Of a stretch of DNA of 64,000 bases, positions 18,001 through 30,000 are shown in pieces; the stretch's first letter is position 1, and each line of letters starts with the position of its first letter. The DNA lies in assembly GCA_000002445.1 (NCBI GenBank), contig CP000071.1, positions 1 through 64,000 on the forward strand, written 5' to 3'. The position numbers are program-made. Source of the DNA: Trypanosoma brucei (taxonomy: Eukaryota).

Positions 18001-21000
18001 CATAGCGTAGAAACAGTCACTCTTAGTGACCCTCATACACAGACTAATTGAAAAAGTCATTAGGTAGATAAATGTTTTTTTAAACAAAGGAAGGTGAAGG
18101 TTTTAAACATGCAAATGTTACGAACAATGTATTAGATTAAACACACTATGACTTATAGGACCCAAATTTAATCTATATTAAGATGTGCAAGGCGTAAAAC
18201 CTCAGGTATTTTTAATTAGAATTTATTAACCCCAACAGCTTTCTGTAGCGTTAAAGTTAAAAAGGGTGCAATAATAGTAAAGAAAATCGCGCAGACAGAG
18301 ACATGTAGGTTAAATCGTGAACGTAAAAGAAACAAAATTCTGAGAAATAAAGATTATGAAGGCAATAGCAGTTTTTTAGTCACAACTTACCACCTGAATA
18401 ACGTTGTAAATACCACAACAAGACTTAATAATCTAGAGACTAAGACGTCGATGAGAGAGATATAACCAAAAGATGCGACAAATGCAGATCCTTTCAATTA
18501 CCACCACCACCACAATATTTATTAGTTTTTTAAAACCCACAATCAGTAGTACCTACAACAAGGTTAATAGAGTATGATAACCAAGTATAGGCACTATAAG
18601 GCGCTATACTTCTATCGCGCGTCTTAATCAACATCTTACAAAATTACGGACCGCACCGATGTATCACCACAAAATGAAAAAACCAAAACCCAATACGCAG
18701 ATGGCATAGCAAGGGCAATACAGAAGCAACCTAACATCTAAAGGAGAAAAAACTAGTGTTGAAAAAAGACAAAAAAGATATCAAACCTTTTCGACCAACC
18801 CTACTTGTTTTACTTGAATAAAAAAGAGCAAGACAAGCCTAATTTTTCCGAGCCCAAACACCTGCACGACAACACTGAACGGCGGAGGAAATAAAACAAA
18901 AACAACATGCTGAGGAGGCTGCTGAACATAAGCCTAGCGCTGTTACTTCAACAACCAGCACAGGGAACAAACGACAAACGGCCACTTAAGCTTTCAGTAG
19001 CGACCTCGTTCTGCACATATTCAAACAAAGCAAAGAAGGCAGTAGCAAATATGGCAGACAAACTAAACGCCATGCACAAATCACTTAAAGCTGCAGAAAA
19101 AGCGGCGCTGCAACACCAACTTAGCCAAGCAGCACTTCCTCAGTACAAAGAGGCCGCAGCAACTATGACCATTTACGCCCAAGCAACCTATCTGGCCGCC
19201 CTAAGCGAGCTTCACGACTGGGCAGGCGAACAAACCAAAACAATAGGCCAAGCAATGTACGTCAGCGGCCGAATCGACGGACTGATGGAGGTCTTAAAAA
19301 GGCACATGTCAACGACCAAAGGCAGCAACAAAGGTTGCATAGCAAACGACGGAGACGCGACAGGAATAGGCAAGTTCGTGGAGAGCAAATGCGATTCAAA
19401 GGATACAACAGTTCTAAGTCCCGCAATTGAAGGCCTAGCAGCCGCATTAGACACAGATATAAGCAACGAAGGCGACCCAGAATCTAATTCGGGACGCGAC
19501 GACTGCCTGCTAAACAACAATCCGCACAGCAGCTATACAGCGGTGACGGTAGACATCAACCTTCTAAACGGCATCCTGCAGATACCCCAGGCCGGCGGCT
19601 TTACTACATCCACAAACGTCCGCGCGGCGACCAAAGCGAACAGTTTGTTCACTGCACTGAAAACGAACGGAGCCAAGCTCAAAATTGACTTAACGGCAAG
19701 TACGATCGACCCACCGACTGACCTCCTTGGGCTAAAGAACCTGCTTAAAACCGCAACCAGTCGACAAGCACTTAAAAGTGCAATTACGCAATACCGAAAC
19801 AAACCAACAGACGACAAGAGCATCAAAGACGACACAATCAAGGCGGCCTTCAGATTAACAGCTGACGACCAGGAGGGCAGGTATCTGAAGGCACTCAAAG
19901 CGGTAGAAAGAACAATTCCCACCACGCCAGGGGAGACCAAATCCACACCCCTGCTCGACACGATTTCCAAACAGCTTGAAGCTGCACTTACGGTGGAGAT
20001 AGGCGGAATATATAAAAAAAACAGTGGAACTAAAGAAGGAAACTGAGACGCTCAGACAAAATCAAGGCAAACAAGCATCGGAAGACACATGCAACAAAAT
20101 AAAAGTCGAACAAGCCTGCAATGCAACCGCAGCATGTAATTTTAATAAAACAGAAACTAAAGAAAGTAAAACGTTCAAATTGGATGCCAGAAAAGCCACA
20201 ACAAATGGAGTCTCTGTAACACAACCTCAAACAGGAGGGACAACAACTGTAAAATTCTCCGGCCATAGTAACAGACCAACTAGTAGTGAAAATAAAATAT
20301 TGTGAAATATAGCCCTGTTTGTGTATGGAGAAAAGAAGATGGTGAGGATGACAACGATACGAAAAAATGCCGCGATTCCAGCTTCCTTCTAAGCAAACAA
20401 TTAGCCATTACGGTTTCTGCTGCATTTATGGCTTTGCTTTTCTAAAACAAAAATTTCCCCCCCCCCTCAATATTTCTTGCTAAAATTTTGCTATTTGATA
20501 TATTTTAACATCTTAAATCTTTTAGAAGTTATATTTTTGGGCTGATTGTGCGTCTGAAATTTTTTAACGACTAAAAATTCTTCTTTTTTTTGCTGCTGAA
20601 TTTTTTCAGTGTTGGATTTTTTAAATATTTGGTGTTGGTTCTGAAAGTTTTGTTCAGAATAGAATAATAAGGAAGGAAGAAAAAAGGCGGGTTATTCGGG
20701 CTAGGAATTTTATTTTTAAAAAATTTTTAAGTGATTCTGCAATTTTTTTTCTGCACACCATAACCTTTATTCACCAATTATATTGATTTCCTTTTTGTTT
20801 CTGTCTTAAACCATAATTTTCAACAACTGCAAATTTAAGCTCTGCGTTCTGCGCCTCTTTTTTTGTTAATTTTTTAAATTTTTAAATTTTCTTAGTGATG
20901 CAGCTCTTTTTTCACATTAAGGCTAGCGCTCATTCATATGTCAGGTACCCTCACTTAAATTTTTCTCATACTCATTTCATATTCACATCGTTACAATTCT

Positions 21001-27000: not shown

Positions 27001-30000
27001 TTGTCAATTTCACCTCTGCGTTTTGCGCTGCGCGAGGCTTCAGTTTTTTAAAACGCTAGCGCGTGGCAATTTCGCTAGGAGGACCAATTTGCTTTTCAGT
27101 TGCCCTAAATTTTTTTTTGTTATTTGGAACTTGCAGAATATGTAGTTTGGCAGCTAAAGCCAGCCGACATAGCAGCTTGGACAGGTCGTGCCTTGGCACA
27201 GCAACCCAACCAATGCGAGCGGAGCTTTCAAACAAATAGCTGAAGCAGCAGAAGGACAATGCATGTGCATCGCCATTCCCTAACAGATTCGGCGGAAGTC
27301 GTCAAAAATCTTAATGAAGAGTCCCATAATCACTACGGACATAAATCCACCGCGAAAAGAAAAACAAAAATCCAACAATAGAAGATCAGAATAAATGCAA
27401 ACTGAAAAACACGACTGCAGAAGAATGCCCGGAAGCTGACTGAGACTATGACACAAAAACACAGGAATGCAAACCTAAATCAGGGAGAAAAAACACAGAA
27501 GCAGGAACAAGAGAGACAATTACCGTGGTGGATTAAAATAAACACCGATACCAGAAAGCATGTAAAGCGGAAAACAAGGATGTCAAACCTAGTGACAAAG
27601 AAGTATGTAGATGAATTGACTGTGTTGATGGTACTGGAAAGCTTCTCAAGCCCGAGTGCCGCTATTCCAGCTCTCTCATCAATAAGAAATTGGCTCTGAG
27701 TATAGCTGCTGCTTTGACGGGTTTGGCTGCACTATATAATTATAAAATTATAGTACTTGATGGATTTTTTTAATTTCATGAATTTTGTGAAACTATTCTA
27801 TGTTGAGAGGATTTGTTAAACTTTTATGAAATTTAATATATTATATCACTTTTTTTAAACCTTTGCGAAATATGAAAAATAATGAATTGTTTTTAAATAA
27901 ATACGTAATTTTTATACTAAAGTGACCTCTAGGAACAAAGATGTAACAAAGTAAGGTAATGTGGTGTGAAAATGAGTGCTATTCTAATTTAGTTAATTTT
28001 TGTTTATTCTTCTTCATTTTTTAGATATCAATTGAGACTATAATAAAGATGATAACAATAGGAGTGTATAGTGAGCGTGTCTTTACTAATATTATAGTAA
28101 GGTTAGTGGTAGAGACTAAATAGATGGCAAATATAGAAGGACTTAAGACAATGACAATGGTGCAATGTGAGTGGGGCAGTGGATGAGTGAGAGAGCGCGA
28201 GGAATATTGTTATGAAAGAAAATGCAGAAAGACAAGTGGAAAAAGATGGAATATGCAAAGTTTCAAACACATTAAAGGCAATGTACATCATTACACACGA
28301 AACGAAGGGTGCGGAAATCATTAATGAAAAAGTAAACCTTACAAAAGTAGTTGAGTTACTTTTTTATCAGAAACTGACAAGGAATGAAGCAACAGAAAAA
28401 GTTGACTAAAGATCAAGTAAAGACCGGCGATAAAAGAATAAGAACACGCGTATGTGAAATAATGAAGGATCTATATTAAGTAAAGAGAGTCAATGCTGAT
28501 ACTCCACAAATTTAAGACATGTATAAAGGTCAGACATTAAGACCTCTAAAGAAACGAATAATTAACGTAAGAGTTTTGATTGATGCAAAAATAATGTATC
28601 GTATTAACAAGGTGGAAGCAGTAAGGAAAGCACTTTCTTTCTCCAAAATTTCAAGTCTTAAGAAAAAGTGAACCATATCCATACTACAAGATCTAAAAAA
28701 GAAGCACAACACCGTCCGGCTCAAAGTTAAGCAACAGCGGTATCTAGTCACTCGGAGTCATGAGGATACATTGAAACTACTAGATGGTAGAAGACTTTTA
28801 AAAACACAAATATAAAATGTCTTAGGTATGCCAAAATCTGCGGTATTTAAAAGAATGACAGAAAGAATATTCTAGTCGTGTATGAAAGAACTATATAAAT
28901 GGACACAGTATGATATAGGTTGAAAATAGCAAGAAACATTAGCAAAAAACAAAATTTACGTTAAACGTTTTTATAATTTTCACCTCTTTCTACGGTGGAA
29001 CTAAGTTTTTCACAAGTTAAACGCGTAAAAAAACGCTACTATTTAGTGTTATAATTTATATATTTATGTATATCTTTATGCCAATTTTTTTAATTTGTGT
29101 TTTTTTCTTTTATCACATGCTTTTCGCTTGTTTGTAGTTGTTCACATTTTTTATTTTGTGCTCTCAATGGCCTGAAAGCGATATAGAGATCGATCCTTCG
29201 TTGGAAATTTATATAAATGGAGCGGCGGAATTTTCATTCGCCACAGCATAGAAAGGAAGAACACCACGACCACATAACCAAATGTTGCTTTAAAACCTAA
29301 AGATCCAGACATATGACAACGATGTGAAGTCTACGAGCTTTTTTCTGGAACTTACATGGGGAGGCAACCAGATAAATCGCTGCAACGCAAAGGCGAGTGG
29401 CATAACTGTTTACTCACTTACATGATTAAAGAAGACACAAGGATTCAACCAATGTATTCTATGCTAAAAGTTGCGGCGTTTGTGTTACCAGCGGCGGCTT
29501 CCAACACACCACGGCAGACAGCGGCAAATTCACAAGCAGACGAAAACGCTCAAGAGTTCGCTCTGCTATGCGACGCCTTTCACATAGAAACAACAGAGCC
29601 CAAACTAGCGCCTGCATCAGACACCGCGAGCACAATAGCAATTAACATGGGTTCCATAAACATGTCAATTGCAGCCAGCACTTTTAAAGCCGACATCGAC
29701 CACACAAAGGATTTAAGTGACCTACAAGACAAACGTGCCGTACCCAAAGCAGGCGACGAAAAGGGCCGCTGGGAAAAATGCTATACCTTCTAGAAAAAAT
29801 GTAAGAATGCAATCGAAACAGACCCCAACAAAGCCGACTAGGCAAAGTGGTCGACGAAAAAGCTTAGAAAAGCCCAGCTCGAGAAATTACGTTTAAACGC
29901 CGAAAGGGCTTTTGAATTTTACAAAGCGGCCCAGACGACACTAAAAATCGCCCAGGCAACAAACATTCAGACACTATTAAATAACGCCGCTTTCGGAGCG

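What the first reader, a model, noticed from the sequence alone, without database searches (positions are those of the whole stretch)
18907..28110. Paralogous 'VSG + downstream flank + orphan C-terminal-domain fragment' modules, one with and one almost without the telomeric tract
The spacer downstream of the VSG pseudogene at 18907..20445 is clearly homologous to both flanks of the telomeric tract. Segment 20560-20600 matches 25640-25690 (CTGATTGT..AACTAAAAA). Segment 21005-21150 matches 26990-27130 (..TTTGCGC..CGCG..CTTCA..TTTTTTAAA..GC..CG..GC.A.TTCGCT..). Segment 20900-20930 and 21330-21360 match 26880-26910 (GTGATGCA..C.TTTTTTGATGC). In the first module only a vestige of the telomere-like repeat remains (GGCGGGTTATTCGGGCTAGG at about 20684-20703). 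Each module then ends with an orphan VSG C-terminal-domain fragment (21690-22031 and 27390-27770) and a 70-bp repeat. This shows the telomeric tract is embedded in a repeated genomic unit and is not a simple contig join. It also gives a before/after pair. Either the tract expanded in module B or it collapsed in module A after segmental duplication.
Basis: seen in the sequence. Interest (0 to 1): 0.65.

Follow-up and report, generated by a model that had tools for sequence, protein, structure and literature searches.

The report
Telomere-type flanks inside a VSG array
Two neighbouring surface-antigen (VSG) genes in a Trypanosoma brucei gene array are followed by DNA typical of a chromosome end, one of them with a 618-base telomere-repeat tract, so they look like former chromosome-end genes now buried inside the array; this is a real but fairly ordinary kind of genomic fossil.

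Summary
The window is T. brucei TREU927 (a 2.48-Mb record), a subtelomeric VSG array. Of 11 VSG 3' ends in the window, 9 run within about 200 nt into a 70-bp repeat. Only VSG_A (18907-20445) and VSG_B (24041-25522) have a different flank, similar only to each other.

- **Shared unit:** 3'UTR, block X (about 115 nt, about 66% identity, moderate support) and block Y (about 290 nt, z=12.7, robust).
- **Module B:** X and Y are separated by 433 nt of T-rich DNA and a 618-nt TTAGGG-type tract in chromosome-end polarity, 664 nt after the stop codon.
- **Module A:** X and Y are 204 nt apart.
- **Both modules:** they end in a VSG C-terminal-domain remnant with an ordinary array flank and a 70-bp repeat.

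Three points do not hold. The "vestige" in A is borderline (p about 0.03). The T-rich similarity is purely compositional. The VSG bodies, upstream regions and orphans are not specifically related, so this is not a recent segmental duplication.

The flanks are about 35% diverged, yet two 193-nt units inside the tract differ at 2 positions, so the tract is young or dynamic. A T. equiperdum contig carries module A at 94-99% identity, also without a tract.

Best reading: these are relics of telomere-adjacent VSG flanks recombined into array cassettes. Interest is moderate to low.

The parts
18907..20445 (+). VSG_A, an A-type VSG pseudogene. The ORF is 379 aa to 20046; the C-terminal part is frameshifted.
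   Evidence: Pfam Trypan_glycop E 8.2e-14. Frames shown. Intact 465-aa relatives exist in T. equiperdum and Lister 427.
20446..20511 (+). 3'UTR of VSG_A: poly-C type, with the 16-mer TGATATATTTTAACAT at 20496-20511.
   Evidence: 16-mer with 1 mismatch. The UTR is similar only to that of VSG_B (score 27, z 9.8).
20513..20660 (+). Block X_A, the non-array-type proximal flank (aligned core 20541-20655).
20686..20705 (+). Possible vestige of the telomere variant (GGCGGGTTATTCGGGCTAGG). Borderline.
   Evidence: 36/1000 shuffles and 40/1206 tiles score as high. T. equiperdum reads ...CGGGTTAGG, one step closer to the tract unit GCGGGTTCGGGTTAGG.
20860..21150 (+). Block Y_A: T-rich leader, GTGATGCA box, about 100 nt of unique sequence, then the box AATTTCAGCTCT..TTTTGCGC..GGCTTCA..TTTTTTAAA..TTTCGCT.
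   Evidence: z=12.7. Reciprocal best hit with Y_B. nhmmer.
21264..21382 (+). Second, partial Y copy in module A (leader plus GTGATGCA box). A third degenerate copy lies at 21510-21575 and a short box-2 copy at 20828-20855.
   Evidence: z 5.0; family D10, 77%; E 0.001; z 4.7.
21600..22031 (+). Orphan A: hinge plus C-terminal domain of another VSG, with one in-frame stop.
   Evidence: Pfam Trypan_glycop_C E 3.9e-15. Nearest relative is the VSG ending at about 42585.
22032..22292 (+). Array-type 3'UTR and flank of orphan A (16-mer at 22084-22099), plus a partial 70-bp repeat at 22262-22292.
24041..25522 (+). VSG_B, an intact 493-aa ORF. It is 100% identical to XP_846884.1, annotated 'VSG, atypical'.
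25523..25599 (+). Canonical VSG 3'UTR of VSG_B: TTGCTACT at 25566-25573 and a perfect 16-mer at 25584-25599.
25601..25752 (+). Block X_B (aligned core 25644-25752). It ends in TTAGGGTTAGGT at 25725-25736.
25753..26186 (+). T-rich spacer (59% T), with no regular period and no specific homologue.
   Evidence: (z 0.3 against the T-rich DNA of module A).
26187..26804 (+). Telomere-repeat tract of 618 nt. It has 55 perfect TTAGGG units, longest run 13. There are 29-nt variant units at the 5' end and a 193-nt higher-order repeat x3. A different variant (TGTTGAGGG/TTAAGG) occupies the last ~95 nt.
26807..27135 (+). Block Y_B: leader 26807-26878, GTGATGCA box at 26881, GC-rich box at 27006-27100.
27136..27387 (+). 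Unassigned A-rich, coding-like segment between Y_B and the orphan C-terminal domain. It may be the tail of a VSG N-terminal domain.
   Evidence: No Pfam hit and no DNA match in the window.
27388..27770 (+). Orphan B: a degenerate VSG C-terminal domain with several stops.
   Evidence: Pfam Trypan_glycop_C E 9.7e-12. Nearest relatives are the VSGs ending at about 8944 and 42607.
27771..28124 (+). Array-type flank of orphan B (degenerate 16-mer at 27834-27849), plus one 70-bp repeat unit at 28041-28124.

Best explanation
Modules A and B are array cassettes. In each, a complete VSG with an expression-type 3'UTR and a chromosome-end-type downstream flank (X, T-rich DNA, telomere-derived repeats, Y) sits in front of the 3' remnant of an older resident array VSG. 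That remnant keeps the ordinary array flank and the next 70-bp repeat.

Most likely origin (inferred): telomere-adjacent VSG copies, together with part of their telomere-proximal flank, were recombined into array cassettes by gene conversion or break-induced copying. Entry would be upstream, classically at 70-bp repeats. The event would end by an illegitimate or microhomology join inside the resident VSG, at a different point each time. Hence two unrelated orphans, of about 430 and about 380-630 nt.

X and Y are members of an old flank family, about 35% diverged between A and B. The tract in B is a copy of subtelomeric junction repeats, not fresh telomerase product. It has been remodelled in place by unequal exchange or slippage, giving a 193-nt higher-order repeat whose last duplication differs at 2/193 positions. 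Module A has no tract, and that state is stable in T. equiperdum.

Shown: the anatomy, the two flank classes, the X/Y homology, the tract polarity and internal structure, and the conservation of module A in a second assembly. Inferred: the telomeric origin and the recombination route. No function is required. As by-products, the tract could bind TRF/RAP1, carry base J, or serve as downstream homology or a telomere seed.
For: Flank classes. Nine of the 11 VSG 3' flanks are mutually similar (z 4-29) and reach a 70-bp repeat within about 200 nt. The flanks of VSG_A and VSG_B match only each other, and the same holds for their 3'UTRs.

Y is robust (z 12.7, reciprocal best hit). X is moderate. There are no other copies in 64 kb.

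Chromosome-end architecture in B:
- The VSG is transcribed towards a G-strand TTAGGG tract.
- The distance from stop codon to tract is 664 nt, inside the 200-1590 nt measured for bloodstream expression sites (PMC2567434).
- The 16-mer is perfect and the TTGCTACT motif is present.
- Variant units spaced 29 nt apart lie at the VSG-proximal (5') edge of the tract.

Orphans. Both are true CTDs with array-type flanks. They are unrelated to each other beyond family level.

Divergence. Upstream regions and N-terminal domains are unrelated. The higher-order-repeat copies are 99% identical against about 65% for the flanks.

Second assembly. T. equiperdum contig L001 is collinear with 17130-25522. Module A is 94-99% identical there and has no tract.
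Against: Y lies distal to the tract in B and distal to the putative vestige in A. The tract is therefore internal to the shared unit, not at its end. A simple 'old chromosome terminus' would not have a conserved block beyond it. The model must assume that real T. brucei chromosome ends carry Y-type islands beyond a first block of telomere-like repeats. I could not check this, because no telomeric T. brucei DNA was reachable.

The two modules are adjacent. Two independent events would be neighbours by chance in 10 of 55 pairs (18%), so adjacency hints at a tandem duplication.

X is only moderately supported. T-rich controls can give z up to 5.9.

The right-hand side of module B has no independent confirmation. 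The T. equiperdum contig stops at the stop codon of the B-position VSG.
Confidence: 0.5

Rival explanations
1. An ancient tandem duplication produced both modules. The unit would be VSG, flank with telomere-like tract, orphan and 70-bp repeat. Gene conversion from other array members later overwrote the VSG bodies and orphans. X and Y, which have no other homologues, simply diverged. The tract then expanded in B and/or collapsed in A.
For: The two modules are adjacent cassettes with the same order of parts. Coding parts are visibly prone to conversion: the B-position VSG is 83% identical between TREU927 and T. equiperdum while its surroundings are 95-99% identical. The T. equiperdum protein is 97% identical to a different TREU927 VSG. 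In-place expansion of the tract is documented.
Against: There is no specific similarity in upstream regions, N-terminal domains, CTDs, orphans or array flanks. The orphans are truncated at different points. The required age (about 35% flank divergence) makes the pair useless as a before/after comparison. The vestige in A is borderline.
Confidence: 0.25
2. The repeats arose secondarily inside an already interstitial X-Y flank. Telomeric repeats were inserted or seeded at a double-strand break, or grew from a short TTAGGG-like seed such as 25725-25736, and then expanded. On this view the tract was never part of a chromosome end.
For: The tract is flanked on both sides by blocks that lie only 204 nt apart in module A. 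The higher-order-repeat structure shows growth by duplication. TTAGGGTTAGGT sits at the end of X_B.
Against: The tract starts and ends with structured variant units (29-nt units at the 5' end, TGTTGAGGG/TTAAGG at the 3' end) rather than pure telomerase-type TTAGGG. B also has 433 nt of extra T-rich DNA that the model does not explain. The whole arrangement of VSG, 3'UTR, distance and polarity matches a chromosome end.
Confidence: 0.12
3. The tract marks an assembly artefact. A contig ending in a telomere was wrongly joined to another contig, so the tract is not interstitial in the real chromosome.
For: Telomere tracts are classic sites of mis-joins. The same doubt was raised for T. cruzi contigs with internal telomeric repeats (PMC3418195). 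The T. equiperdum contig breaks exactly at the stop codon of the B-position VSG, so the junction has no independent support.
Against: Two true chromosome ends joined falsely would give TTAGGG followed by CCCTAA. Here the tract is unidirectional, and no CCCTAA dimer occurs in the window. The order X then Y is independently seen in module A, both in this assembly and in T. equiperdum. Chromosome-internal TTAGGG repeats in T. brucei are acknowledged in the literature (PMC8191777).
Confidence: 0.05

Closest known systems
Telomeric VSG chromosome end of T. brucei (bloodstream or metacyclic expression-site end, minichromosome end)
   Same: A VSG with the canonical 3'UTR (perfect 16-mer) is transcribed towards G-strand TTAGGG repeats. 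The gap of 664 nt lies within the 200-1590 nt reported for expression sites (PMC2567434). Variant repeats precede the purer hexamers.
   Different: The structure is not terminal: 37 kb of array follows. The tract is only 618 nt, is a higher-order repeat of variants, and is followed by a conserved non-telomeric block (Y) and a VSG remnant.
Interstitial telomeric sequences of the subtelomeric type (for example yeast X-(TG1-3)-Y' junctions and human subtelomeric ITS; my own knowledge)
   Same: A degenerate plus perfect telomere-repeat tract in head-to-tail polarity lies between two blocks of subtelomeric repeat families. It is dynamic through unequal exchange.
   Different: Here the blocks flank an antigen gene and a gene remnant. 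The family size and distribution of X and Y are unknown.
Chromosome-internal TTAGGG repeats of T. brucei, mentioned in passing by Saha et al. 2021 (PMC8191777), citing the Lister 427 assembly
   Same: The same phenomenon in the same species.
   Different: Neither that paper nor the cited genome paper describes flanks, paralogous tract-less copies or orphans.
Internal telomeric repeats in T. cruzi chromosome-end contigs (Moraes Barros et al. 2012, PMC3418195), and telomere-like repeats beside internal SICAvar/pir islands in Plasmodium knowlesi (as summarised in PMC9131526)
   Same: Telomere repeats sit inside regions rich in surface-antigen genes. They are read as traces of end-to-interior rearrangement or as possible assembly errors.
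   Different: The gene families and species differ. No homologous flank pair with and without the tract is described there.
'Incomplete' VSGs (C-terminal fragments) of the silent archive (Marcello & Barry 2007; my own knowledge, paper not held)
   Same: Orphans A and B are CTD-only remnants with array-type 3' flanks.
   Different: Here each remnant is directly preceded by a non-array flank, which suggests how such fragments can arise.

Membership tests
Interstitial telomeric sequence (ITS) | Tandem array of the species' telomere repeat (TTAGGG) | tested here: met
   618 nt with 55 perfect TTAGGG units, longest run 13. TRF gives period 6 and 91.7 copies.
Interstitial telomeric sequence (ITS) | Non-terminal: unique DNA on both sides in the real chromosome | tested here: inconclusive
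   Met within this assembly. The unidirectional polarity and the X-then-Y order in module A argue that it is real. No independent sequence spans the tract, because the T. equiperdum contig ends at the VSG stop codon.
Telomeric VSG chromosome end | VSG transcribed towards the repeats, with the G-strand 5'->3' on the coding strand | tested here: met
Telomeric VSG chromosome end | VSG-to-repeat distance of 0.2-1.6 kb | tested here: met
   664 nt, against 200-1590 nt in 17 expression-site clones.
Telomeric VSG chromosome end | Terminal position, with the repeats running to the chromosome end | tested here: not met
   Y, an orphan CTD, a 70-bp repeat and 36 kb more of array follow.
Telomeric VSG chromosome end | Downstream flank homologous to the flanks of bona fide telomeric VSGs | not testable with these tools
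   No T. brucei telomeric DNA was reachable.
Standard array VSG cassette | 3'UTR followed within about 200 nt by the array-type flank and the next 70-bp repeat | tested here: not met
   Nine of the 11 3' ends fit this pattern. VSG_A and VSG_B do not. Their orphans do.
Segmental (tandem) duplication of a whole module | Collinear homology over the whole unit, above family background | tested here: not met
   Specific homology is limited to 3'UTR+X+Y. Upstream regions, N-terminal domains, CTDs, orphans and array flanks are not specifically related. No high-identity repeat exists.

The most novel reading that the evidence does not exclude
VSG_B may be a 'pseudo-telomeric' archive gene. It is intact and has a canonical 3'UTR, a 70-bp repeat remnant upstream and 618 nt of telomere repeats downstream. 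It therefore offers both homology blocks used when telomeric VSGs are copied into an expression site. The tract could also seed a new telomere after a break, turning an array gene into a telomeric one. Such genes would be activated earlier or more often than ordinary array VSGs. Internal tracts would mark a two-way traffic between chromosome ends and arrays that shapes the order of antigen expression.
Probability: 0.12. Interest if true: 0.65.

Novelty: new member of a known kind. Interest (0 to 1): 0.33.

Why it matters
If the reading is right, the locus is direct sequence evidence that telomeric VSG copies, together with their chromosome-end flank, get deposited into the silent arrays. It would also show one way that C-terminal 'incomplete' VSGs arise.

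The reading gives a simple marker for counting such events genome-wide: a non-array 3' flank with X and Y, with or without a tract. It also singles out one intact array VSG whose flanks resemble those of telomeric donors, which is testable against existing VSG-expression data.

It does not reveal a new mechanism or a new class of element.

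Tried and rejected
- **Fetching the locus from other T. brucei assemblies failed.** Exact-protein look-ups for VSG_B, P0001, P0004 and the VSG at 7309-8883 found nothing. 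Two metagenome scans also found nothing, one for a Y motif and one for the canonical VSG 3'UTR. Only a T. equiperdum contig was reachable, through a cluster member.
- **Reaching the right side of module B failed.** A search with the glycosyltransferase-like ORF found no orthologue with a contig. Cluster members of the VSG_A relatives gave no further contigs.
- **Rfam found nothing** on 18-29 kb at E<=0.1.
- **T-rich homology between A and B is rejected.** It is compositional only.
- **A lenient scan for telomere-like vestiges** returned only long, low-identity chance alignments. With a stricter score the A 'vestige' is borderline.
- **A composition-adjusted score was biased** towards A/C/G-rich coding tiles. 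It confirmed Y but was uninformative for X.
- **A clean flank replacement at the 3' end of VSG_B is rejected.** Compared with T. equiperdum, the difference is a variable CTD sub-domain, and the last ~70 nt are again similar.
- **Literature.** Ten searches found no description of this architecture. Marcello & Barry 2007 is not held.

Full report
**What the window is.** Pfam finds A-type and B-type VSG N-terminal domains, VSG C-terminal domains (CTDs), and ingi-like reverse transcriptase and RNase H ORFs. The 493-aa ORF at 24041-25522 is 100% identical to XP_846884.1, 'VSG, atypical', of Trypanosoma brucei brucei TREU927, on a 2,481,190-bp record. The window is therefore a subtelomeric VSG array. 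The VSG 3'UTR 16-mer marks 11 VSG 3' ends. 70-bp repeats mark the cassette boundaries.

**Checking the observation.** A sensitive blastn of 20445-22300 against 25523-28110 gives weak (60-64%) but collinear matches. I tested each block separately.

- **Block Y.** 20860-21066 against 26836-27052 scores 36, against 13.8 +/- 1.7 for dinucleotide shuffles (z=12.7). It continues to 21150/27135 across a 37-nt indel (tail z=4.7). The two Y blocks are reciprocal best hits in the whole window even under a composition-adjusted score.
- **Block X.** This is the 115 nt beyond the 16-mer. It scores 29, against 14.0 +/- 2.2 for shuffles and against at most 22 for 27 genuine T-rich tiles of the two modules. 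Of 60 aligned pairs other than T:T, 32 are identical. I call X moderately supported, because T-rich patches can reach z about 6 in such tests.
- **T-rich stretches.** The similarity between the T-rich DNA of A and B is purely compositional (z=0.3).
- **The 'vestige'.** The string exists at 20686-20705. However, 36 of 1000 shuffles and 40 of 1206 window tiles match the tract equally well.
- **Orphans and repeats.** The orphans are true VSG CTDs (E 3.9e-15 and 9.7e-12). 70-bp repeat matches follow them at 22262-22292 (partial) and 28041-28124.

**The most informative result: two classes of 3' flank.** I compared the 250 nt after the 16-mer for all 11 VSG 3' ends. Nine are mutually similar (z 4-29) and run into a 70-bp repeat. 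The flanks of VSG_A and VSG_B resemble only each other. Their 3'UTRs behave the same way (z 9.8). The two orphans carry ordinary array-type flanks.

Profiles of X and Y find no further copies in 64 kb, apart from partial Y copies inside module A at 20828-20855 and 21289-21382. Direct-repeat and local alignments add 21510-21575 and place the second copy at 21264-21355. So each module is a complete VSG plus an unusual 1.0-1.6-kb flank, placed in front of the 3' remnant of an ordinary array VSG.

**What is not shared.**
- The upstream regions and N-terminal domains of VSG_A and VSG_B show no similarity.
- Their CTDs, and the two orphans, have other genes of the window as nearest relatives.
- The orphans are cut at different points.
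- A self-comparison of the window shows no high-identity A-B repeat.

The specifically shared unit is therefore only 3'UTR, X, (tract) and Y, at about 62-70% identity.

**The tract.** It spans 26187-26804 (618 nt) and has 55 perfect TTAGGG units, with a longest run of 13.
- Its 5' edge consists of variant units spaced 29 nt apart (GGGTTAGCGGGTTCGGGTTAGGGTGTTTC).
- Its body is a 193-nt higher-order repeat in three copies. The last two copies differ at 2 of 193 positions.
- Its last ~95 nt use other variants (TGTTGAGGG, TTAAGG).
- All repeats are on the VSG strand. No CCCTAA dimer occurs anywhere in the window.
- The tract starts 664 nt after the VSG_B stop codon. This is inside the 200-1590 nt measured between VSG and telomere in 17 expression-site clones (PMC2567434).
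- VSG_B has a perfect 16-mer and the TTGCTACT motif.

The left side of module B therefore reproduces the architecture of a T. brucei chromosome end. That subtelomeric 29-bp variant repeats precede the hexamers at real ends is my recollection of the 1980s literature, and I did not verify it here.

**Evidence from a relative.** One external locus could be fetched. T. equiperdum OVI contig CZPT02000887.1 (L001, 8387 nt) is collinear with window 17130-25522.
- Module A is 94-99% identical segment by segment, with no large indel. It therefore lacks a tract there too. The 'vestige' reads GGCGGGTTATTCGGGTTAGG, one base closer to the tract unit.
- Module A and its adjacency to the B-position VSG are thus real and predate the split of these lineages (about 3% divergence).
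- The contig ends exactly at the stop codon of the B-position VSG, so the flank of module B remains unconfirmed.
- That VSG is only 83% identical at the DNA level and 75% at the protein level to VSG_B. It is 97% identical to another TREU927 VSG, CAJ16781.1. Either the VSG body was converted in one lineage, or L001 is orthologous to a second TREU927 locus.
- Either way, coding parts turn over independently of the flanks. This weakens any inference about module history drawn from the genes.

**Interpretation.** The flank divergence between A and B (about 35%) is roughly ten times the TREU927-T. equiperdum divergence. The tract, in contrast, contains 99%-identical 193-nt units and long perfect runs. 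The tract is therefore much younger than the A/B split, or is continually remodelled. Expansion in B is documented, but A and B are not a matched before/after pair.

I favour the view that both flanks derive from telomere-adjacent VSG copies that were recombined into array cassettes, leaving the resident genes' 3' ends as orphans. The main difficulty is that Y lies beyond the tract. The tract is thus internal to the shared unit, and the model needs Y-type islands at real chromosome ends. I could not test this. An old tandem duplication followed by conversion of the coding parts remains a serious rival, because the modules are neighbours. Secondary insertion or expansion of repeats and an assembly artefact are less likely, for the reasons given under the rival explanations.

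[quoted passage not shown] The genome paper itself does not describe them. Similar internal tracts were noted, and doubted, in T. cruzi contigs (PMC3418195). They are also associated with internal antigen-gene islands in P. knowlesi (PMC9131526). The closest general analogue is the subtelomeric type of interstitial telomeric sequence, such as the yeast X-(TG1-3)-Y' junction (my own knowledge).

**Verdict.** This is a new, well-characterised instance of a known kind of feature, not a new kind. The finding is a real genomic fossil with a testable side-hypothesis about donor competence of VSG_B. A specialist would not find it very surprising.

Noticed in passing
window 12529-17269 (-) and 53505-58251 (+): Two ingi-type retroelements in inverted orientation are 97.1% identical over 4752 nt. 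They bracket about 36 kb holding nine VSG cassettes, including both modules. This is a substrate for inversion. The T. equiperdum contig also begins in the left-hand element.
   Followed up: partly
window ~48500-53500 (-): A third, degenerate retroelement (RVT_1 and C2H2 zinc-finger ORFs on the minus strand) lies head-to-head with the plus-strand ingi. The strand composition flips here.
   Followed up: no
window 32272-33690 (+): A 472-aa ORF has a first ~300 aa that is 79-83% identical to TREU927 UDP-Gal/GlcNAc-dependent glycosyltransferases. It runs into the start of a B-type VSG, so it is a fused or pseudogenic arrangement inside the array.
   Followed up: partly
window 24041-25200 (+): The N-terminal domain of VSG_B matches no Pfam VSG N-terminal model (only the CTD hits) and is annotated 'atypical'. 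Relatives at 88-89% identity exist in Lister 427 and EATRO1125.
   Followed up: no
window ~20010-20046; P0025: The frameshift that truncates VSG_A to 379 aa seems to be shared with EATRO1125 'VSG 1125.1378', which is also 379 aa. T. equiperdum and Lister 427 (VSG 1173) have an intact 465-aa gene.
   Followed up: no
window 24330-24930 and 25230-25460, against L001: Identity to T. equiperdum drops to 77-83% in the middle of the VSG_B N-terminal domain and to 60-82% in the CTD. Short dips also occur at 19130-19229, 21030-21129 and 22930-23029, within otherwise 95-100% identical DNA. This patchy pattern suggests segmental conversion.
   Followed up: partly
window 22284, against L001: T. equiperdum has 67 extra nt here, which is one more 70-bp repeat unit, between orphan A and the B-position VSG. 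There is also a 126-nt deletion at 17556.
   Followed up: no
window 5744-6183 and 40230-40676: A 454-nt stretch upstream of two different VSGs is 75% identical. It is the only other dispersed repeat above the threshold in the self-comparison.
   Followed up: no
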